From Candidatus Woesearchaeota archaeon (lineage in GTDB: Archaea > Nanobdellota > Nanobdellia > SCGC-AAA011-G17 > PNOQ01), in assembly GCA_964587005.1 (NCBI GenBank), contig CAZPJW010000003.1, positions 6,392 to 70,391 of the forward strand: a stretch of DNA of 64,000 nt. The letters run 5' to 3'. This document shows, piece by piece, positions 20,370 to 28,102 of this stretch; the stretch's first letter is position 1; the number at the start of each line of letters is the position of its first letter. A program made the translations under genes and the position numbers. The notes under the pieces were generated by a model that worked only from the letters and a program-made list of their open reading frames with translations, was not told the DNA's origin and ran no database searches.

Positions 20370-20762
20370 TTAAGCTTTTTCTTTTAGAACTAAATACGCT
20401 ATGATTAAAACCCCAATTACATTAAATGAGTCTGCTATATTAAAAATTGGCCAAACTTGTAAATCTATGAAATCTCTAACATAACCTAATGAAACTCGGT
20501 CTATTAAATTTCCAATTGTTCCTCCGAATAAAAAAGCTAAAGGAATTCTTAGATTTTTTTCTTTTTTTGCTAAGAAAAATATAAAAATTGCTACTAGGAA
20601 TGAGATTATTGTTAATAGAAATGTTTGATTTTGTAGTATTGAGAAGGCTGCTCCGGTGTTTGTTGTGTAGTTTATGAATAAAAAATGCTTATTTGTGAAT
20701 AAGTCTTTTGTTAGTTGATCTAGGAAGATTATTAATATTGAAATTAGGAGGAATTTTTTCAT
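20370..20762 (-). CDS. lspA: Lipoprotein signal peptidase (signal peptidase II, LspA-like)
   Basis: Conserved LspA blocks NTGAAFS, GGTIGNLIDR, GYVRDF and IFNIADS (catalytic Asp positions) across 4 TM segments. Confidence 0.75.
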   Translation of the reverse strand: MKKFLLISILIIFLDQLTKDLFTNKHFLFINYTTNTGAAFSILQNQTFLLTIISFLVAIFIFFLAKKEKNLRIPLAFLFGGTIGNLIDRVSLGYVRDFIDLQVWPIFNIADSFNVIGVLIIAYLVLKEKA

Positions 20763-20815: not shown

Positions 20816-21916
20816 GTGGAAACTTGTAAAGAACCACCAAAGAGACTTTCTATTATTGTTAAGCCGACTCATGATTGCAATATGGGCTGTGAGTATTGTT
20901 ACATTGATCCCGAAGCAGAACAAGGAGTTATGGATGAAGGAACATTGGAAAATATGGTTAATAAATCGATGTCTACCCATGATTCTGTTCATTTTATCTG
21001 GCATGGGGGGGAACCCTTGTTGTTACCCCTGTCTTTTTATAGAAAGGCTGTTGAATTTCAAAAGCAATTTGAAGGCAAAGGTGTCAGCAATGGATTTCAG
21101 ACTAACGGAACACTAGTAACTAAGGAAGTTCTGGATTTTTGCGAGGAGAATCAATTTAGTATGGGATTTAGTTTAGATGGTCCAAAACATATTAATGATG
21201 AAACTAGGCATTTTAAAGACGGAAGCAGTAGTTATCTAAAAACATTAAGAGCGATTAAGCGAGCACAAAAGAGAAAAGTGGGAGGGGGCGCTATTGTTGT
21301 TGTGAATAAAACAAATGTAGATAGGCTCCCGGAGATATATGAATTTGCTCAGAGGCAAGGAATAAACTTGAAATTGAATCCGTTGATTAAGGCAGGTTCC
21401 GCTCTTGATAGTATGGAAGATTTGGGTATTGGTCCCCTAGAATATGGTCGAGCTTTAGTAGATTTATTTGATAGGTGGTTTTATGATGATTCTAGTGTTA
21501 GAGTGGATCCCTTTGAAGATTTGATGGGCAATTTGTTAACTGGGAAACCTTGGGGATGTAATTATTCTGAATCTTGCCAAAATTCCTTTATATCTGTTGG
21601 TCCACAAGGAGACATATACCCTTGTGGGAGGTTTGATGGAGTTCCTGGATTTCATTTAGGAAATGTAAATGAGGGAGATCTTGCTGATGTTTTAACTTCG
21701 GAGAAAAGGTTACATCTGAGAGGAAGGGCCGAACGGATTGAGCCCTGTCAGCCGTGCGAACATAAGGATATATGCAATTCTGGCTGTATGCATAATGCTT
21801 ACATGAGGAGAGGCAGAGTCGATGATAGAGATTATTATTGCGCAAGCTTTAAATTGTTGTTTGATCATATTAATGAAGCGATGGATGCTGAGTTGGCTAA
21901 CGCGGAGGTGAAATGA
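20816..21916 (+). CDS. Radical SAM enzyme with a C-terminal SPASM domain (peptide-maturase type)
   Basis: CNMGCEYC CxxxCxxC cluster, GGEPLL, and a C-terminal auxiliary-cluster Cys array (CNYSESC...CGRF...CQPCEHKDICNSGC); more GC-rich than the flanks; stop overlaps the start of the first downstream small ORF (ATGA). Confidence 0.8.
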   Translation: METCKEPPKRLSIIVKPTHDCNMGCEYCYIDPEAEQGVMDEGTLENMVNKSMSTHDSVHFIWHGGEPLLLPLSFYRKAVEFQKQFEGKGVSNGFQTNGTLVTKEVLDFCEENQFSMGFSLDGPKHINDETRHFKDGSSSYLKTLRAIKRAQKRKVGGGAIVVVNKTNVDRLPEIYEFAQRQGINLKLNPLIKAGSALDSMEDLGIGPLEYGRALVDLFDRWFYDDSSVRVDPFEDLMGNLLTGKPWGCNYSESCQNSFISVGPQGDIYPCGRFDGVPGFHLGNVNEGDLADVLTSEKRLHLRGRAERIEPCQPCEHKDICNSGCMHNAYMRRGRVDDRDYYCASFKLLFDHINEAMDAELANAEVK

Positions 21917-22182
21917 TGGCTGAATTAGAGGGAATTGTTATGGTAAACGGAAGAAAAATTGATATAAGAAAGGTTAGTAATAAAAGAATGAGATATGTTT
22001 TAGGGGGATTTTCTGAATCCACCTCAGACGGATTTATGTTTCGAAAGAGAAATCATACAGATTACACTGACCATTCTGAATATGAAATAGGTATAGACTG
22101 TGATCCTGCGGACCATTGGGGGCATACGGACCATTCTAACTATAGTGACCATAAAGATAAACATACAGACAATCATAAGTAA
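21913..22182 (+). CDS. Putative RiPP precursor peptide A (leader plus HTD/YTD/YSD repeat core)
   Basis: 89 aa; leader-like NGRKIDIRKVSNKRMRYVLG...DGFMFRKRNHTD shared with the next two ORFs; core rich in H/Y-T/S-D/E triplets; start codon overlaps the maturase stop. Confidence 0.5.
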   Translation: MMAELEGIVMVNGRKIDIRKVSNKRMRYVLGGFSESTSDGFMFRKRNHTDYTDHSEYEIGIDCDPADHWGHTDHSNYSDHKDKHTDNHK

Positions 22183-22204
22183 TACTTTGTGAGGTGAAAT
22201 TGAA

Positions 22205-22435
22205 ATGGAAAGATTAGAAGAAAAAGTTATTGAAATACAAGGCAAAAAAATTGACCTAAATAAATTAGGAAATAAAAGAATGAGATATGTTTTAGGAAGA
22301 CTTGATTATTCTGACGGGTTTTTGTTTTGGAAAAGAAATCATACTGACCATCGGGAACACACGGATGAAGATGGAGGAATTGATTGTAGTCATATTAATT
22401 GGACCGATCATACAGATTATTCCGAGAATTGTTAG
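22205..22435 (+). CDS. Putative RiPP precursor peptide B
   Basis: 76 aa; QGKKIDLNKLGNKRMRYVLG...DGFLFWKRNHTDHREHTDEDGGIDCSHINWTDHTDYSENC; paralog of peptide A. Confidence 0.5.
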   Translation: MERLEEKVIEIQGKKIDLNKLGNKRMRYVLGRLDYSDGFLFWKRNHTDHREHTDEDGGIDCSHINWTDHTDYSENC

Positions 22436-22516
22436 GAATGGATAATTTATGGTTGTTGGGGTCAAAGTTTGAAAGGCATAAAGATTTGTATGGTGGTTCA
22501 AATAGGTAATTAAGAA

Positions 22517-22960
22517 ATGTCAAAGATAATAAGGTTTAATGGAAGGAGAATTGATTTGGGAAGGATCACAAACCTAAAATTAGTTGAAGTGTTTAAAGAA
22601 AGAGTTCATGATGGAAATAGATTTTTGTTTTTTCATAAAGATAATTATACGGAAGAACATACCGATCGTAGTAAAAGAAATTATGATGATTATTCTGATC
22701 ATTCTGAATACGGAGATCATCACGATCATAAAGATGGACACAGAGATTATGACAAATATTATGATCGTCATAATGATCGGGGCGAGGGGCATACTGATAA
22801 ATTTGGTAAATTTCATTTTAATAGGGATGACCATACTGACCACGGAGGAGTTCCCAGATTCCATAGGGATTCGGCGGGAGGAATAGGGAGAAGCCATGAA
22901 GATCATGGTGGTCATAAGAAAAATAAACATACTGATGATCATACTGATAAGACCAAGTGA
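22517..22960 (+). CDS. Putative RiPP precursor peptide C (extended His/Asp/Tyr-rich core)
   Basis: 147 aa; the NGRRIDLGRITN leader is homologous to A and B; the core has many HTD/YSD/HSE/YDD triplets and is His-rich. Confidence 0.5.
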   Translation: MSKIIRFNGRRIDLGRITNLKLVEVFKERVHDGNRFLFFHKDNYTEEHTDRSKRNYDDYSDHSEYGDHHDHKDGHRDYDKYYDRHNDRGEGHTDKFGKFHFNRDDHTDHGGVPRFHRDSAGGIGRSHEDHGGHKKNKHTDDHTDKTK

Positions 22961-23017
22961 GTTTGTTAAGGTGTTGGTGATAGAAATCTTTAAATACGTT
23001 TAAACCAGATTTTTAGT

Positions 23018-24535
23018 ATGGCTGAAATGAGTATAGAATCTGCTAGAGAGAAGTTGAAAGATAAGAAGACTTCTTTTAAAAAGAAAATTGAAATTAGGCA
23101 GAAACTTATTGAAAAACTAAGAAAAGAAAAACAGGTTAAGTTTTCTGTTGGAGACCCTGTTGAATATAAGATTATTTATGATACTTTTGCTGGTTCTTTG
23201 GAGCCAGTTTATTTTTGGACTTTAGATTTTTTAAGAAATAATAATCCTTCAGGATTGGGATTTGAGGTGGATAAGACTGCTGAAGAATTTGAGGCTACTG
23301 CTGGTGGAGGTTTTTTTGGAGAGTTAGGTTCAAGGGCTACTGTGATGCAGGAAAGGGGAATGAAAATATTAGAAACGGTTAATGCGGTTTTGAGAACAAT
23401 TATTAATTTAATTTATGATTTGAAAGAGTTTGAAATGAGATTGAATGCTTATGATGATGCGAATTCTGAAGATAAACAAAGAAAGGATGCTGGAGAGTAT
23501 TCTTTGAAAGGAATTTGGATGGATCAAGTTGATGTTAAAACAGGCTTAGGAAGTATTAATCAATTGACAAGGGGAGATTTACAATTTGTTACTTTGAGAG
23601 ATGCATTTATGCAGGCTAGAGTTTATAAGAAAAAGGATGGCTCTTTTAACAAGTCTAAAACTTTCAAGGATATAGGTGAAAGTGAAAAAGAAGGAATGGA
23701 TTTGAATAGAAGAGTTAAGGTTTTGTTAAAGAAAAAACTTGAAGAATATTTGAATTGGAGAGAGGCTAGTGAAAAAGAGCTGAAGAAAAGATTTGAGATA
23801 GAAAAAAATTATTTGAAAGCACAAGTTGATAGTTTGAAGTTGTATACTACGTGGGCAAAGCCTTATTTGAGGGCGGCCCAGAAATTAGGAATGAAAGAAT
23901 TTAAGACGGGTAGAGATTTGCCTGTTCCGGATATGGTTACAGCGTTTAATAGTATGCAAATGAATTTGAAATTGTTGGGCAGAAAAGAGTTTAAACCTAC
24001 GAAGGTCCATCCTTCTTTTGATAAATTTGATTTTGGAAAGAAATACTATTCATGCATTGAAGTAGAGTTTTTGTATAGGTCTGCTCCACAAGTGGTAAAA
24101 CAAGGGCAGAGCCAACATTATACCCACATGGGCACTGTTGAAGTTTGTTTTAAGGCGTTTGTTTTTGATGATAGGGATTTAGAAGATATTTATGCTCAAG
24201 AGGTTTATGAAGATATGGCTTTAGTTGAAGAATTAACTGAGACCTCTTTGAATGATTTGCAAGAAGATATAGAAAGATATATTTACCCGGATGAAAAAAA
24301 AGAAGAAGAGGATAATGGTCAGGACCTATTTAGTGGAATTTTGGGTGGTTTTAGTAGTTTGAAAAAAGTCTCTAAGTTTCCTAGTAAGATTATGAAACTT
24401 GGTCCTTCTGGAAAAAGAAATGCTGGAAGTTATGAAAAGAAAAAAGTTGTTCAAGAAGCTGGTGATAGTGCAAGAGATAGTTGTTATGTTTTATATGATG
24501 TTTTTAAGAAGTCACATGGAATGGTAACATGGTAG
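23018..24535 (+). CDS. Hypothetical protein (505 aa), start-coupled to the downstream Nfo-like gene
   Basis: No recognisable motifs; its stop overlaps the next start within ATGGTAG; charged coiled-coil segments. Confidence 0.3.
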   Translation: MAEMSIESAREKLKDKKTSFKKKIEIRQKLIEKLRKEKQVKFSVGDPVEYKIIYDTFAGSLEPVYFWTLDFLRNNNPSGLGFEVDKTAEEFEATAGGGFFGELGSRATVMQERGMKILETVNAVLRTIINLIYDLKEFEMRLNAYDDANSEDKQRKDAGEYSLKGIWMDQVDVKTGLGSINQLTRGDLQFVTLRDAFMQARVYKKKDGSFNKSKTFKDIGESEKEGMDLNRRVKVLLKKKLEEYLNWREASEKELKKRFEIEKNYLKAQVDSLKLYTTWAKPYLRAAQKLGMKEFKTGRDLPVPDMVTAFNSMQMNLKLLGRKEFKPTKVHPSFDKFDFGKKYYSCIEVEFLYRSAPQVVKQGQSQHYTHMGTVEVCFKAFVFDDRDLEDIYAQEVYEDMALVEELTETSLNDLQEDIERYIYPDEKKEEEDNGQDLFSGILGGFSSLKKVSKFPSKIMKLGPSGKRNAGSYEKKKVVQEAGDSARDSCYVLYDVFKKSHGMVTW

Positions 24536-26457
24536 ATAGATTTCATAAGGATGTTCAAGAGAATATGGATAGTTCTAATTCTATGAAGTTTGGAGATTTA
24601 AGTTGGACTACTAATCCTCAAAGTGCCAATCAATTGGCAGAGTTAGGTAAGAGATTAAATGAGGGAGTTAAGAATGTGGAAGTGGGTGCTTTGAGTCAAC
24701 AAGTTTTTGATGCAATTCCTCAGCAACATTTTGAAGAAATGAGAAGGCTTTCTAAAATGGGCGGCGTTGGTTTAACTATGCATGCCCCTTTGACTGATCC
24801 CGCAGGTTTTTCAGAAAGAGGTTGGGCAGAACATAGTAGGAATTTGGCTGGGCAAGAATTTAAGGATGTTGTTGATAGGGCACATAAGCTTAGCCCAGAT
24901 GGGAAAATGACAGTTAATTTTCATTCATCTGGCGGAGGTATTGCTGCCACAGTTTGGGAGAAGAAAGAAAAAGGGAAACCTGAAGAAAAACAATTTATTT
25001 CTGCAGTTAATACAAGAACTGGTGAGATTAAACCAATTCAACGAGATAAGATGGATTGGTTAACTGGGGAAAAGATAATGACTCCTCAAGATAAGTTAGA
25101 TAATCTAAATAACGTTTCTTGGGATCAAGATATTATGCAAGTAATGTCTATGAAACACCAAAAAGATGAAATTGATAATCAACAGATGAAATGGAGAACT
25201 CAAACTCCTCAAGGTTTACAGTTGCTTGAGTTGGAAATGAAAAAAAAGAAGGGAAGGATTACGGGGCAAGAAGAAAAATTGAGAAATGAATTGCTTTCGG
25301 AAGATAAATTTTTTGAAGCCCATAAAGAGGAAATTAATCAAGTTATGATGAGTCAGTTAAATAGTTTGTATAATGATTATAAGCATTACGCTGAATCCAA
25401 AGCAAAAGATGTAGAAGAGAATAGAGATTATCATGATAAAAATTTAAAAATGTTTGGGAAAATTAAGAAAAAGTATGCAGAAAGAAATAAATATATGAAT
25501 GAGAGACTTAAAACGGAAGATAAGAAATTTAAGGAATGGATTGTAAAAAATCCAAATGTTTCAACGGAAGAAATATTAGAAAAACAGGCTAGTATCCGTG
25601 AGGATGTGTTTAGAAAAGCTAAGGAAAAGGGATTGGATATTTCTCCAGAACGATTAAGTTTAATGTTGAAAAATATTGAAGCGCCCGAAAGGTTTAGGCC
25701 TGCAGATGATGTGGCTAGAGAAAAGGCCGCAGAAACTTTTGCTGATGTTGCTTTGCACGCACATGAAAAATATGGCGATAAGGCGCCCCTAATTGCTATT
25801 GAAAATGTTTATCCTGAATGGACCTTGTCTAGAGCAGAGTCTTTGAAGGGAATGGTTGGGGATTCTAAGAAATTACTTGTTAAGAAGTTAAAGGAAAAGG
25901 GAATTGGTGAAGGTGAAGCAAAAAGAATTGCTGAAACTAAAATGGGAGTTACTTGGGATCTTGGGCATATCAATCAATTAAGGAAGTATGGATTTACCAA
26001 AGAAGATATTGTTAAGGAAGCTGAAAAGATAGGGAAACATGTAAAACATATTCATATTACAGATAATTTTGGTTATTCTGATAGTCATTTAGCTCCAGGA
26101 ATGGGAAATGTTCCAATAAAAGAGCAACTTGAAGCCATTGAAAAGAAAGTTGGAAAAGATGAATATAGAAGAATGAAAGGAGTTATTGAGGGCGGAGGGA
26201 TGTTTCAACAATTTCAAGCTAATCCTGTTCCGTATACTATGGATGAGGGGGCGTTTAATAGCCCATTTTATACTTATGATGGTCCAAGTTGGGGTGATGT
26301 GAAAGATTTGTATTCGTCTTATATGTTTGGATTTGGAGATGTTTTGCCAGATGTTCATTTCAAAACCCAGGGGGCAGGATTTTCGATGTTACCCAAGGAG
26401 TTGGGTGGTGGAGGTGGTGGCGGAGATAAAGGGAGATTTGCGGATCAGAATCAATAA
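24529..26457 (+). CDS. Endonuclease IV (Nfo)/xylose-isomerase-like TIM-barrel protein with a large coiled-coil insertion
   Basis: Nfo-like metal-ligand blocks appear in the expected order: MHAPL, VNFHSSGG, then a ~300-aa K/E-rich insertion, then LIAIENVYPE, GVTWDLGHINQL, HIHITDNFG..DSHLAPGMGNVPI; poly-Gly C-terminus. Confidence 0.55.
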   Translation: MVDRFHKDVQENMDSSNSMKFGDLSWTTNPQSANQLAELGKRLNEGVKNVEVGALSQQVFDAIPQQHFEEMRRLSKMGGVGLTMHAPLTDPAGFSERGWAEHSRNLAGQEFKDVVDRAHKLSPDGKMTVNFHSSGGGIAATVWEKKEKGKPEEKQFISAVNTRTGEIKPIQRDKMDWLTGEKIMTPQDKLDNLNNVSWDQDIMQVMSMKHQKDEIDNQQMKWRTQTPQGLQLLELEMKKKKGRITGQEEKLRNELLSEDKFFEAHKEEINQVMMSQLNSLYNDYKHYAESKAKDVEENRDYHDKNLKMFGKIKKKYAERNKYMNERLKTEDKKFKEWIVKNPNVSTEEILEKQASIREDVFRKAKEKGLDISPERLSLMLKNIEAPERFRPADDVAREKAAETFADVALHAHEKYGDKAPLIAIENVYPEWTLSRAESLKGMVGDSKKLLVKKLKEKGIGEGEAKRIAETKMGVTWDLGHINQLRKYGFTKEDIVKEAEKIGKHVKHIHITDNFGYSDSHLAPGMGNVPIKEQLEAIEKKVGKDEYRRMKGVIEGGGMFQQFQANPVPYTMDEGAFNSPFYTYDGPSWGDVKDLYSSYMFGFGDVLPDVHFKTQGAGFSMLPKELGGGGGGGDKGRFADQNQ

Positions 26458-26498
26458 TTTTTTAAAGGTTAAAAATAAATTTGAGAGTAGGTGATTAA

Positions 26499-27407
26499 TT
26501 GGTAACGAAAAAAAAGAAGAGGAGTGTAAAAAAAGTTCCTAGTCCGGGCAAGAAAACTGGCAAATTAGAAAAGGCTCCTAAGCCCGGGAAAAGAAGTAAA
26601 AGATTGAAAACTGATAAAGATATTGCCTATGATTTTTCTTTAAAGGCTTATGAAGAATTTAAAGAGGTAATTAAGTCCGTAGTTCTTTTTGGAAGTGTTG
26701 CTAAAAATACTGCAAAAAAAGGAAGCGATATTGATATAGTTATAATTATTGATGATTGTGTTATTAATTGGGATCAGGAATTGATTGCTTGGTATAGACA
26801 AGAATTAAAAGAATTGATTGAAAAACAAAGCTATGCTGAAAGAATTCATTTAACCACTGTTACTTTGAGTGCATTTATGGAAGAAGTTAGAATTGGAGAG
26901 CCAGCTGTTATTAATATGATTAGATATGGTGAGACAATTTTAGATTATGGTGGTTTTTTTAATCCCATGAAAGTTTTATTAGCTAAGGGAAAAATTAGAC
27001 CAACTGCTGAGTCTATTTTTGTTGCTTTACGGAGAGCTCCGATGCACATAGCTAAAGCTAAGGTTGGTATTGTTGCAAGCATTGAGAATATTTATTGGAG
27101 CATGGTAGATAGTGCACATGCTGCTTTGATGGCGGCAGGACATGTTCCTCCGAGTCCAGAATATGTTAGCGAATTACTACAGAAAGTTTTTATTAGTAAT
27201 AAGAAATTGGATAAGAAATATATTTCTTGGTTTAATGAAATGTATACTTTAACTCACGATATTATGCATGGTAATGTTAAATATTTGAATGGTAAAGAAA
27301 TTGATTTATATTTAGATAGAGCTGAAGAATTTGAAAGGGTTATGCGAAAAATAACTACTAATTATATAGATAATGAAAAAATAATAAAAATAGAAAAAAG
27401 AAATTAA
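26499..27407 (+). CDS. Minimal nucleotidyltransferase (Pol β-type) fused to a HEPN-like helical domain
   Basis: LFGSVAKNTAKKGSDIDIVIIID NTase signature (GS...DxD); C-terminal domain with RRAPMH (Rx4H) and AHAALMAAGHVPPSPE; paralog of the 36507–38297 ORF. Confidence 0.55.
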   Translation: MVTKKKKRSVKKVPSPGKKTGKLEKAPKPGKRSKRLKTDKDIAYDFSLKAYEEFKEVIKSVVLFGSVAKNTAKKGSDIDIVIIIDDCVINWDQELIAWYRQELKELIEKQSYAERIHLTTVTLSAFMEEVRIGEPAVINMIRYGETILDYGGFFNPMKVLLAKGKIRPTAESIFVALRRAPMHIAKAKVGIVASIENIYWSMVDSAHAALMAAGHVPPSPEYVSELLQKVFISNKKLDKKYISWFNEMYTLTHDIMHGNVKYLNGKEIDLYLDRAEEFERVMRKITTNYIDNEKIIKIEKRN

Positions 27408-27409
27408 AT

Positions 27410-28102
27410 TTATTGTTTTTCTAGGTCTAGTTTGTCTAAGTATAGTTTTGCTGTCATAAATGCCCTATCTTCTGGTTTTTCTACACCCATTAATGTTTGA
27501 GTTGTAGATCTTGCTAGATAGTCTTTAGTTTTTCCAGCTCCTGACAGTGCTTCTTTCATACTTTCGACTCTTTCATTTGCTAGTATTGTTCCAAAGTGAG
27601 TTAGGAATACTTCACTTCCTGGACCCCTACTTGCTTCTGCAAAAGATCTTTCCCAACCTTCTGGTGCATAATTGGTTGCGAATTGTCCTAAAATATTAGT
27701 GTCTTTTTCAGTTAACCCACGTGCTAATTTTCTATATTCATCGTGATCTTGTGTTACTTGTGGTTTTTCGTAATCTGAAACGGGTGCAAGTACTTTTAGT
27801 TTACCTAGTGCTTCATCAAAATTATCGGTTGATTTTGCTTTTGCTACTTTACCTATTAATGCTTCATCAGTTATACCAACTAGTTCTTCTAGTTTTTTTG
27901 GAACGGCATCTGCTACAAACGCAACTCTTTCCCTTTTTAGAGTTCCTCTACCTTGTGTAAAATGGTTTTCGGGTAATCCATAAATATTTTCCCCATTTAA
28001 AGCAGCACCAATTTCGTCTGATGTGGCTTTCTCTGAATCTTGAGAAGCTTCATAAAATAGGTCGAATGCTTTTGCAATTGGATCGTATTGTGTTAATGTC
28101 AT
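27410..28102 (-). CDS. Hypothetical protein
   Basis: 230 aa, no recognisable motif, relatively GC-rich codons. Confidence 0.3.
   Translation of the reverse strand: MTLTQYDPIAKAFDLFYEASQDSEKATSDEIGAALNGENIYGLPENHFTQGRGTLKRERVAFVADAVPKKLEELVGITDEALIGKVAKAKSTDNFDEALGKLKVLAPVSDYEKPQVTQDHDEYRKLARGLTEKDTNILGQFATNYAPEGWERSFAEASRGPGSEVFLTHFGTILANERVESMKEALSGAGKTKDYLARSTTQTLMGVEKPEDRAFMTAKLYLDKLDLEKQ

What the first reader, a model, noticed from the sequence alone, without database searches (positions are those of the whole stretch)
23018..26457. Endonuclease IV-like TIM barrel split by a ~300-aa coiled-coil insertion, start-coupled to a 505-aa unknown
The 642-aa ORF contains, in the correct order, the metal-ligand blocks of the Nfo/xylose-isomerase-like AP-endonuclease family: H-A-P, N-F-H, I-E-N, D-x-x-H, H-x-x-D, D/H in the HLAPGMGNV segment, and a final E. 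Between the NFH and IEN strands sits a ~300-aa Lys/Glu-rich helical insertion. There is also a ~70-aa N-terminal extension and a poly-Gly tail.

Its start overlaps the stop of a 505-aa protein with no recognisable domains (ATGGTAG), which suggests a two-component unit.

An Nfo fold carrying a giant inserted coiled-coil is unusual. It could tether the nuclease to a partner or filament, or it could belong to a repair or defence module.
Basis: partly seen in the sequence, partly recalled or inferred. Interest (0 to 1): 0.6.

Follow-up and report, generated by a model that had tools for sequence, protein, structure and literature searches.

The report
Split metal TIM-barrel enzyme with orphan partner
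Two overlapping genes on a tiny-celled (DPANN, Woesearchaeota-type) archaeal chromosome encode a metal enzyme barrel interrupted by a 246-residue inserted domain and a very conserved partner protein of unknown fold; the pair occurs in hundreds of related species and its job is unknown.

Summary
ORFs 23018-24535 (505 aa, "P505") and 24529-26457 (642 aa) exist and overlap by ATGGTAG.

**The 642-aa protein**
- It is a xylose-isomerase-like TIM barrel (PF01261).
- AlphaFold2 (pLDDT 82, pTM 0.78) closes eight strands around a 246-aa insert in the β4-α4 loop. The insert is a β-meander plus three ~40-residue helices.
- All nine endonuclease IV metal-ligand positions are kept. Seven are invariant in 48 homologues.
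- It is not an Nfo orthologue. There is no significant sequence match to E. coli Nfo.
- The only sequence-related solved structure is MJ1311 (function unknown), and ketose 3-epimerases top the fold ranking.
- The claimed 70-aa N-terminal extension is barrel, not an extension.

**P505**
- It is an orphan family with 810 clusters at 50% identity.
- It has no match in Pfam, NCBIfam, PHROGs or PADLOC, and no fold match.

**The pair**
- It is a core syntenic module of Woese-, Pace- and Nanoarchaeota-labelled genomes (344 species).
- The barrel gene lies downstream of P505 in 66 of 66 informative loci.
- A ~200-aa charged ORF usually sits between the two genes but is absent here.

**Best guess**
A three-metal phosphoesterase working in a lineage-specific complex with P505, substrate unknown. 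A defence or mobile-element role is unlikely.

The parts
22989..22996 (+). TATA-like box TTTAAATA, centred ~25 nt upstream of the P505 ATG. Candidate archaeal promoter giving a leaderless or near-leaderless transcript.
   Evidence: Read directly from the sequence. That it works as a promoter is inference.
23018..24535 (+). P505: a 505-aa orphan α/β protein, the first gene of the unit.
   Evidence: ORF. No match in Pfam, NCBIfam, PHROGs or PADLOC. 752 homologues at 40-73% identity. 810 clusters at 50% identity. AF2 pLDDT 78. No Foldseek match in PDB or BFVD.
24529..24535 (+). ATGGTAG overlap: the start of the barrel gene lies inside the last codons and stop of P505.
   Evidence: The same 7-nt overlap occurs in L001, L002 and L007-L010.
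24529..26457 (+). 642-aa xylose-isomerase-like TIM-barrel metalloenzyme (whole gene).
   Evidence: PF01261 at 38.4 bits against a cutoff of 31.1. 51 homologues. AF2 pLDDT 82, pTM 0.78.
24586..24939 (+). N-terminal barrel half (residues 20-137, β1-β4), carrying ligands H85 and H132.
   Evidence: Aligns to MJ1311 residues 61-145 once the insert is removed.
24940..25677 (+). Inserted module (residues 138-383): a β-meander (142-184) followed by helices 186-225, 227-240, 246-288, 299-340, 346-366 and 373-381. It sits in the β4-α4 loop on the catalytic face.
   Evidence: Present in all 48 family members at 192-264 aa. Only N194 and W198 are conserved in it.
25678..26223 (+). C-terminal barrel half (residues 384-565): the P-E-x-aromatic loop, α4 and β5-β8, carrying ligands E425, D477, H480, H509, D518, H520 and E554.
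   Evidence: Aligns to MJ1311 residues 180-271.
26224..26454 (+). Conserved, predicted-disordered C-terminal tail (residues 566-642) with motif SPxY..PxW..Y..GxG..P..GxGF..LPxELGG plus a Gly run. Candidate partner-docking peptide.
   Evidence: pLDDT below 50 for residues 580-642. Motif conserved in at least 85% of 48 sequences. The docking role is inference.
26458..26463 (+). T6 run immediately after the TAA stop. Candidate archaeal transcription stop at the end of the two-gene unit.
   Evidence: Read from the sequence. Inference.
26499..27407 (+). 302-aa minimal nucleotidyltransferase (NTP_transf_2) with a conserved C-terminal helical domain. A frequent downstream neighbour and possible third component.
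   Evidence: Pfam 3.9e-11. Directly follows the barrel gene in 47/59 loci. Strongly conserved, including the GS..SDID motif.
20370..20762 (-). Peptidase_A8 (LspA-like signal peptidase II). A conserved divergent upstream neighbour, given here as context.
   Evidence: Pfam 1.6e-28. Divergent upstream of P505 in 68/80 loci.

Best explanation
This is a two-gene operon on the chromosome of a Woesearchaeota-type (GTDB Nanoarchaeota) DPANN archaeon.

**Gene 2.** It encodes a metalloenzyme of the xylose-isomerase-like TIM-barrel superfamily, in the MJ1311 subgroup. It keeps all nine side chains that hold the three-metal cluster of endonuclease IV. A 246-residue module is inserted in the β4-α4 loop on the catalytic face. 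The module consists of a small β-meander and a bundle of three ~40-residue helices. It lies directly before a conserved P-[EK]-x-aromatic loop.

**Gene 1 (P505).** It encodes a highly conserved cytoplasmic α/β protein with no detectable relatives outside this lineage.

**Most likely mechanism (inferred).**
- The barrel is a three-metal phosphoesterase that hydrolyses a phosphodiester or phosphomonoester bond.
- It works as a stoichiometric complex with P505.
- The conserved disordered C-terminal tail of the enzyme, and/or the inserted module, dock it to P505 or shape access to the active site.
- The substrate is not established. A nucleic-acid end or lesion is the leading candidate. A small-molecule or lipid-type phosphodiester is not excluded.

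**Shown versus inferred.** Shown here: the ORFs, the fold prediction, ligand conservation, family-wide presence of the insert, and strict gene linkage. Inferred: catalysis, complex formation and substrate.
For: - Fold and superfamily: PF01261 scores above its cutoff. With the insert removed the score is 50.1 bits, and 22/22 members match. The AF2 barrel closes around the insert. Foldseek aligns across the insert to TIM barrels.
- Ligands: seven of nine Endo IV positions are 48/48. The other two are 41/48, and their substitutes (N/H, E) can still bind metal. H85 and H132 (Endo IV site 1) and D518 and H520 (site 3) go beyond the E-D-H-E single-metal set of the epimerases. The motif-by-motif match to E. 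coli Nfo H69, H109, E145, D179, H182, H216, D229, H231 and E261 was read, and one search aligns the HxxD..DxH..GxGN..E part.
- Closest relative: MJ1311 at 2.4e-16, with both halves aligned. MJ1311 IPELW aligns to family aPklf, which is A385-P386-E387-R388-F389 in the window. P386 is 47/48 and position 389 is aromatic in 43/48.
- The superfamily includes a non-DNA phosphodiesterase, CbiR (PMC7733943). There is a weak N-terminal CbiR hit.
- Linkage: the barrel gene is downstream of P505 in 66/66 loci with at least 2.7 kb of downstream sequence. The two genes overlap or nearly abut in 12 loci. The pair is found under 344 GTDB species representatives.
- The tail is conserved although predicted disordered, which is typical of a docking peptide.
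Against: - There is no activity, metal or interaction data.
- Sequence similarity to Nfo is not significant.
- The best fold matches are ketose 3-epimerases.
- The same nine-ligand geometry can also hold iron in oxidative DUF692/MNIO enzymes (own knowledge).
- The Endo IV DNA-wedging residues Y72 and L73 have no obvious counterpart after H85, where the family has A-P-[LVI]-x-D.
- No domain is clearly basic. Median pI values are 5.1-8.6.
- The insert is poorly conserved in sequence, so it is an unlikely specific interface for the very conserved P505.
- Gene linkage inside a generally syntenic region is weaker evidence for a physical complex than linkage across scrambled genomes would be.
Confidence: 0.45

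Rival explanations
1. It is the lineage's true endonuclease IV: an AP endonuclease and 3'-end-cleaning enzyme of base-excision repair. The insert and P505 would tether it to DNA or to a repair factor.
For: - All nine Nfo ligand positions are present in order, with several identical tripeptides (NFH, IEN).
- MJ1311 was once listed as the predicted EndoIV homologue of M. jannaschii (PMC2770678).
- A Pol-β-superfamily nucleotidyltransferase lies next door in 47/59 loci.
Against: - There is no significant sequence match to Nfo and no NCBIfam nfo hit.
- Endo IV structures rank below the epimerases by fold (E 0.036-0.11 against 1e-4).
- The Y72/L73 equivalents are not evident.
- The neighbouring NTase is a minimal MntA-like nucleotidyltransferase, not a PolX polymerase.
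- From my own knowledge of the MJ1311 structure paper (Uechi et al. 2014, not held in the library), MJ1311 keeps the nine ligands but lacks the DNA-binding groove.
Confidence: 0.17
2. It is a metabolic sugar or sugar-phosphate isomerase/epimerase (or dehydratase), as public annotations say. The insert would serve only as an oligomerisation or lid domain, and P505 would be unrelated in function.
For: - The top Foldseek hits are D-psicose, D-allulose and D-tagatose 3-epimerases (E 1.2e-4, TM 0.62-0.68).
- JGI names the protein 'sugar phosphate isomerase/epimerase'.
- There is a weak NCBIfam hit to fructoselysine 3-epimerase.
- The shared E-D-H-E metal site is present.
Against: - The NCBIfam score is 30.5 against a cutoff of 305.
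- Invariant H85 and H132, and the D518/H520 pair, are not part of the epimerase single-metal site.
- Strict linkage to a more conserved non-enzymatic partner is not typical of sugar catabolism.
- No sugar-pathway genes were seen in the loci examined.
Confidence: 0.15
3. It is an oxidative multinuclear-iron enzyme, by analogy with the MNIO/DUF692 group. Like MbnB-MbnC or TglH-TglI, it would work with an obligatory partner (here P505) to modify a peptide or protein.
For: - MNIOs are TIM barrels of the same fold class with Endo IV-like ligands, and they need a partner subunit (own knowledge). TglHI appears among the Foldseek hits (8hci_B, rank 42).
- In the window and in L036, a radical-SAM/peptide cassette sits right next to the pair.
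Against: - PF05114/DUF692 is not among the Pfam families listed for any of the 22 members (the first 25 of 29 families at E <= 0.1 are shown).
- The TglHI match is weak (E 0.11).
- The radical-SAM cassette is present in only 2 of 86 loci.
- P505 is unlike the small RRE-type partners.
- Many hosts are anaerobes, although some relatives are marine (TARA).
Confidence: 0.07
4. It is an anti-virus defence or mobile-element module, with a nuclease effector and a sensor.
For: - A nuclease-like enzyme sits beside an unknown partner and a nucleotidyltransferase.
- The NTase gives weak PADLOC hits to candidate systems and to CBASS-type cyclases.
Against: - Neither P505 nor the barrel has a PADLOC or PHROG hit.
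- The locus is a fixed chromosomal position with conserved housekeeping neighbours across 344 species. That is the opposite of the patchy distribution of defence islands.
Confidence: 0.03

Closest known systems
MJ1311 of Methanocaldococcus jannaschii (PDB 3wqo; 'D-tagatose 3-epimerase-like protein', function unknown)
   Same: - It is the only solved structure with significant sequence similarity: 2.4e-16 with the insert removed, with both barrel halves aligned.
- It has the same HAP, VH, DxGH and HxHxxDN..D(E/S)H..G.GN motifs.
- It has the same P-E-x-aromatic loop after β4 (IPELW).
- From my own knowledge of the structure paper, it keeps the nine Endo IV ligands.
   Different: - MJ1311 is 293 aa with no insert.
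- The DPANN family carries 192-264 extra residues exactly before the PE-x-aromatic loop, plus a ~75-aa conserved tail.
- The DPANN family is always encoded with P505.
- Identity in the aligned parts is low.
Endonuclease IV (Nfo, E. coli b2159; three-zinc AP endonuclease)
   Same: - Same fold class.
- The same nine ligand positions in the same order: H69, H109, E145, D179, H182, H216, D229, H231 and E261, matching H85, H132, E425, D477, H480, H509, D518, H520 and E554.
- A three-metal phosphodiester-hydrolysis mechanism is the model for how it may work.
   Different: - There is no significant overall sequence similarity.
- The fold rank is lower than for the epimerases.
- The DNA-wedging residues are not evident.
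- Nfo has no insert, no conserved tail and no obligatory partner gene.
Ketose 3-epimerases (D-psicose, D-tagatose and D-allulose 3-epimerase; for example 8xiv, 7x7w, 3vni)
   Same: They are the best Foldseek matches over the whole barrel (E 1e-4 to 1e-2, TM 0.62-0.68). They share the E-D-H-E metal positions.
   Different: - They are single-Mn/Co enzymes.
- They do not rely on the extra His-His and Asp-x-His ligands that are invariant or near-invariant here.
- They have no insert.
- Sequence identity is 8-10%.
CbiR cobamide-remodelling phosphodiesterase (PF01261 superfamily)
   Same: It is a PF01261 member that hydrolyses a phosphodiester in a small molecule, and it has conserved His/Asp/Glu metal residues (PMC7733943). 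There is a weak N-terminal hit (E 0.0013).
   Different: The score of 18.3 is far below the cutoff of 105. There is no cobamide gene context and the architecture is different.

Membership tests
Xylose isomerase-like TIM barrel / AP_endonuc_2 superfamily (PF01261) | Pfam model match above the gathering score | tested here: met
   38.4 bits against 31.1 for the native protein. 50.1 bits with the insert removed, with 22/22 members matching.
Xylose isomerase-like TIM barrel / AP_endonuc_2 superfamily (PF01261) | A single closed (β/α)8 barrel | tested here: met
   The AF2 model has eight strands and pTM 0.78. Foldseek aligns across the insert to ~290-aa barrels with TM 0.57-0.68. This is a prediction, not an experiment.
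Endonuclease IV (Nfo) | Nine residues of the trinuclear metal site in order | tested here: met
   Seven positions are 48/48. D518 is 41/48 and H520 is 41/48. The match to Nfo is by motif.
Endonuclease IV (Nfo) | Significant sequence similarity to Nfo or a hit to a curated nfo model | tested here: not met
   The insert-free profile scores 1.0 bit against E. coli Nfo, and hhalign gives probability 1.3%. No nfo model appears among the NCBIfam hits.
Endonuclease IV (Nfo) | DNA-recognition residues (R37, Y72, L73) and a DNA-binding groove | tested here: inconclusive
   After ligand H85 the family has A-P-[LVI]-x-D where Nfo has D-S-Y-L. No structure-based superposition was possible because model coordinates are not returned.
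Endonuclease IV (Nfo) | AP-endonuclease / 3'-diesterase activity | not testable with these tools
   Needs an enzyme assay.
MJ1311-like proteins | Sequence similarity over both barrel halves, including the PE-x-aromatic loop | tested here: met
   2.4e-16, in two aligned stretches. P386 is 47/48 and position 389 is aromatic in 43/48.
MJ1311-like proteins | Compact ~290-aa single-domain architecture | tested here: not met
   A 192-264-aa insert is present in all 48 members, together with a ~75-aa tail.
Ketose 3-epimerases / sugar-phosphate epimerases | Curated family model above its cutoff | tested here: not met
   Fructoselysine 3-epimerase NF007360 scores 30.5 against 305.
Ketose 3-epimerases / sugar-phosphate epimerases | Closest fold | tested here: met
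   They fill most of the top Foldseek ranks (ranks 1-21).
MNIO / DUF692 (PF05114) | Pfam model match | tested here: not met
   PF05114 is not among the families listed for the 22 members (the first 25 of 29 families at E <= 0.1 are shown).
Known anti-phage defence systems (PADLOC-DB) | Any component model match for P505 or the barrel protein | tested here: not met
   Zero families for both proteins.

The most novel reading that the evidence does not exclude
P505, the insert-bearing three-metal barrel enzyme, the usually intervening ~200-aa charged protein and perhaps the adjacent nucleotidyltransferase together form a previously undescribed molecular machine. It would be specific to Nanoarchaeota, essential, and built on a new protein fold (P505). 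It could be, for example, a nucleic-acid end-processing complex or a phosphodiester-scavenging complex that replaces a function these reduced genomes otherwise lack.
Probability: 0.25. Interest if true: 0.8.

Novelty: new variant of a known kind. Interest (0 to 1): 0.55.

Why it matters
DPANN archaea have very small genomes, so a gene pair kept at one fixed locus in hundreds of species is likely to matter for the cell. P505 is better conserved than the enzyme it accompanies (40-73% identity against 29-62% among homologues outside the window's own close clade).

- Neither protein has an assigned function.
- P505 has no domain-database entry and no detectable fold relative.
- The enzyme shows that the Endo IV/MJ1311-type three-metal barrel can carry a 250-residue domain on its catalytic face.

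Working out the substrate would also give a first functional handle on the MJ1311 subgroup, whose structure has been solved while its function remains unknown. It would also fill one of the larger conserved blanks in Woesearchaeota- and Pacearchaeota-type genomes.

Tried and rejected
- **Full-length profile against E. coli Nfo by hhalign.** The result was meaningless because of the insert. I repeated it with an insert-deleted alignment.
- **P505 against sequence libraries.** Pfam, NCBIfam, PHROGs, PADLOC and PDB sequence profiles gave nothing. Ten divergent family members also have no Pfam domain.
- **Insert-free relatives closer than MJ1311.** The last large homology search returned mostly fragments of the same family.
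- **DUF5788 and DUF5678 hits in helix α5.** These are below threshold and were ignored.
- **The ~200-aa middle ORF.** I looked for it elsewhere in the window and found none.
- **A second PF01261 or Nfo-like gene in the 64-kb window.** None was found.
- **PIP box.** I looked by eye in the C-terminal tail and found none.
- **HEPN Rx4-6H motif in the neighbouring NTase.** The conserved motif is R-x3-H, so I make no HEPN claim.
- **NTase and the 230-aa minus-strand protein against PDB.** No hits.
- **MJ1311 structure paper.** It is not in the paper library. What I say about it rests on my own memory.


Full report
**1. What is in the sequence**

The window has two ORFs on the + strand: 23018-24535 (505 aa, here "P505") and 24529-26457 (642 aa). 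The ATG of the second lies inside the TGG-TAG end of the first, giving ATGGTAG at 24529-24535.

A TATA-like TTTAAATA (22989-22996) lies about 25 nt upstream of the P505 start. A T6 run follows the second stop codon (26458-26463). From the sequence alone the two genes therefore look like one transcription unit; this is inference.

The window is 30-37% G+C. The region around the pair is collinear with housekeeping genes:
- a Glu/Gln-type and a Trp/Tyr-type tRNA synthetase;
- a PUA-domain protein and a methyltransferase;
- UPF0047;
- signal peptidase II;
- PPDK;
- ribosomal protein L10e/L16.

**2. The 642-aa protein is one TIM barrel with a domain inserted in it**

- Pfam finds only PF01261 (xylose-isomerase-like TIM barrel / AP_endonuc_2), on residues 466-539.
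- A large homology search gives 51 homologues, mostly ~590-680 aa full-length proteins plus a few shorter fragments, down to 29% identity.
- An AlphaFold2 model built on 48 of them is confident (pLDDT 81.9, pTM 0.78).
- The model has eight barrel strands: 24-27, 49-53, 81-85, 128-132, 421-425, 472-477, 505-510 and 550-553.
- Between strand 4 and helix α4 (392-418) lies a module made of β-strands (142-184) and long helices (186-225, 246-288, 299-340, plus shorter ones). It is predicted with pLDDT 84-94.
- Foldseek against the PDB aligns the query across the insert to ordinary ~290-aa barrels (540-580 alignment columns, TM on target 0.57-0.68).
- The insert is 192-264 aa in all 48 members. Apart from N194 and W198 it is hardly conserved in sequence.
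- It sits in a β→α loop, so it is on the catalytic face.
- The first strand starts at residue 24, so the proposed ~70-aa N-terminal extension is in fact β1-α1-β2-α2 of the barrel.
- Residues 580-642 are predicted disordered but carry a conserved motif, SPxY..PxW..Y..GxG..P..GxGF..LPxELGG, followed by the Gly run.

**3. Which kind of PF01261 enzyme?**

I fetched E. coli nfo and checked the nine residues that bind the three zinc ions. These are H69, H109, E145, D179, H182, H216, D229, H231 and E261; the numbering was verified on the translation, and the roles come from established knowledge (Hosfield et al. 1999).

| Nfo motif | Window motif |
|---|---|
| PH69D | MH85AP |
| NFH109 | NFH132 |
| IE145N | IE425N |
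| D179TCH182 | D477LGH480 |
| H216LND | H509ITD |
| D229RH231..GEGNI | D518SH520..GMGNV |
| LE261T | IE554G |

- Seven of these positions are invariant in 48 sequences. D518 is D in 41 (N or H otherwise), and H520 is H in 41 (E otherwise).
- H85/H132 and D518/H520 go beyond the E-D-H-E single-metal site of the sugar epimerases.
- Membership in the Nfo family nevertheless fails. An insert-free family profile scores 1.0 bit against Nfo, hhalign gives 1.3% probability, and only the HxxD..DxH..GxGN..E stretch aligns. No nfo model appears in NCBIfam.
- The only solved structure with sequence similarity is MJ1311 (3wqo). The E-value is 1.3e-7 for the native protein, 4.9e-14 for the full-length family profile and 2.4e-16 for the insert-free profile, with both halves aligned.
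- In that alignment MJ1311 IPELW matches the family's P-[EK]-x-aromatic loop, which begins exactly where the insert ends. P386 is 47/48 and position 389 is aromatic in 43/48.
- From my own memory of the MJ1311 structure paper (Uechi et al., Acta Cryst F 2014; not held in the library):
  - MJ1311 keeps the nine Endo IV ligands but has no DNA-binding groove;
  - E125, L126 and W127 of one subunit cover the metal site of the other;
  - its function is unknown.
- By fold, ketose 3-epimerases rank first (E 1.2e-4) and Endo IV structures lower (E 0.036-0.11).
- The superfamily also holds CbiR, a phosphodiesterase that acts on a cofactor (PMC7733943).

The evidence therefore supports 'a three-metal barrel of the MJ1311/Endo IV type'. 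It does not show a nuclease.

**4. P505**

- There is no hit in Pfam, NCBIfam, PHROGs, PADLOC or PDB sequences, either as a single sequence or as a profile.
- It nevertheless has at least 752 homologues at 40-73% identity.
- A profile search of 1.84 billion cluster representatives finds 810 clusters (283 at E <= 1e-30). The 150 listed are mostly ~440-560 aa.
- Ten divergent members have no Pfam domain.
- The AF2 model (pLDDT 77.8, pTM 0.62) mixes long helices (103-148, 231-290, 385-422, 471-499) with two β-sheets, including ~20-residue hairpins (343-384).
- It has 39 invariant residues, many of them aromatic or charged, and a conserved C-terminus Y..KK.HGM.TW.
- I saw no transmembrane segment or signal peptide by eye.

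**5. The pair is a conserved module**

A scan of one genome per GTDB species found 344 species encoding P505. All 80 listed record titles are Woesearchaeota, Pacearchaeota, Nanoarchaeota, Nanoarchaeia or unnamed archaea, including the complete genome GW2011_AR20. I annotated the 80 fetched loci with family HMMs:

| Feature | Count |
|---|---|
| Barrel gene downstream of P505, same strand (loci with >= 2.7 kb downstream) | 66 of 66 |
| Intergenic gap <= 0 nt | 4 loci (also the window's closest relatives L001/L002) |
| Gap 1-200 nt | 8 loci |
| Gap 201-1000 nt | 53 loci |
| Gap > 1000 nt | 6 loci |
| A further ORF in the gap (median 203 aa, 38% charged residues) | 58 loci |
| Minimal nucleotidyltransferase directly after the barrel gene | 47 of 59 |
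| Peptidase_A8 gene divergent upstream of P505 | 68 of 80 |

- Of the 58 gap ORFs, 47 form one weakly conserved family. This ORF is absent from the whole 64-kb window.
- The nucleotidyltransferase corresponds to 26499-27407 here.
- Much of this is general synteny of a slowly rearranging chromosome. tRNA synthetase, PPDK and L16 genes are also kept nearby. Only the P505-(small ORF)-barrel core can be called a unit with confidence.
- This distribution, together with zero PADLOC or PHROG hits, argues against a defence island or mobile element.

**6. How it most likely works**

Shown:
- a predicted closed barrel;
- an invariant Endo IV-type ligand set;
- an insert on the catalytic face immediately before the loop that, in MJ1311, reaches the active site;
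- a conserved disordered tail;
- obligatory co-occurrence, and in this clade translational coupling, with P505.

Inferred:
- The enzyme binds two or three metal ions and hydrolyses a phosphoester.
- It acts as a complex with P505, and equal dosage is ensured here by the ATGGTAG overlap.
- The tail is the more likely docking element, because it is conserved. The insert is more likely a lid, spacer or oligomerisation arm, because it is conserved in structure but not in sequence.

The substrate is open.
- A nucleic-acid substrate is favoured by the Endo IV-like site.
- Against it: no domain is clearly basic (median pI 5.1-8.6), the Y72/L73 wedge is not evident, and MJ1311 lacks a DNA groove.

I put 0.45 on 'three-metal phosphoesterase in a P505 complex', 0.17 on a true AP endonuclease, 0.15 on a sugar epimerase/isomerase, 0.07 on an MNIO-like oxidase and 0.03 on defence.

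**7. Novelty**

The barrel belongs to a known superfamily, and its nearest relative is a solved but uncharacterised protein. I found no description of the insert-bearing architecture, nor of its fixed pairing with an orphan protein absent from the domain databases I searched, in those databases or in the literature searches. I rate it a new variant of a known kind. There is an open possibility (about 0.25) that the whole module is a new lineage-specific machine.

Noticed in passing
window 20816-22960 (+); also L036:3505-5737 (-): A radical-SAM/SPASM peptide maturase lies at 20816-21916. Its best NCBIfam hit is the dynobactin maturase DynA, 8.8e-96, below the cutoff. It is start-coupled to an 89-aa ORF (21913-22182) and followed by a 147-aa ORF (22517-22960). 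The two small ORFs are 47% identical. They share a leader-like N-terminus (NGRxID...N) and repeated His-x-x-Tyr / HTDH / DHSEY motifs, which makes them candidate multi-crosslinked RiPP precursors. The same cassette (maturase, a 142-aa His/Asp-rich peptide and a 218-aa ORF that looks to me like a C39-type peptidase) sits in the same LspA-P505 intergenic position in L036, in the opposite orientation. It is absent from the other 84 loci.
   Followed up: partly
L003:7296-7871, L004:8557-9150, L005:8430-9050 and 58 of 71 GTDB loci; absent from the window: A ~200-aa ORF with ~38% charged residues and weak conservation lies between P505 and the barrel gene in most lineages. The window's clade, where the two genes overlap, lacks it. 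No homologue is found anywhere in the 64 kb.
   Followed up: partly
window 20370-20762 (-): A Peptidase_A8 (bacterial-type lipoprotein signal peptidase II) gene lies in an archaeal genome. It is divergently placed upstream of P505 in 68 of 80 loci. Whether this is only synteny or a functional link is not known.
   Followed up: partly
window 26499-27407 (+): A 302-aa minimal nucleotidyltransferase has a Lys-rich N-terminal tail and a very conserved C-terminal helical domain (conserved WD.ELIAWYR, RYG, GGFF, R-x3-H and PPSPE). It follows the barrel gene in 47/59 loci. It has no PDB sequence relative. It appears to start at TTG, preceded by AGGTGA.
   Followed up: partly
window 27410-28102 (-): A 230-aa ORF has no match in Pfam, NCBIfam, PADLOC or PDB. 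phmmer detects it at the same position only in L007 and L010; L001/L002 and L003 have an ORF of similar size (234 and 205 aa) at that position.
   Followed up: no
P0327 (278 aa, 67-kb contig), P0355 (286 aa, labelled Nitrososphaerota, 19-kb contig): Short proteins on long contigs match only the C-terminal barrel half of the family (47-63% identity). They may be split or frameshifted genes, or a half-barrel variant. One lies outside the DPANN labels.
   Followed up: no
P0197 (688 aa): A P505 homologue carries a ~239-aa N-terminal extension with no Pfam domain.
   Followed up: no
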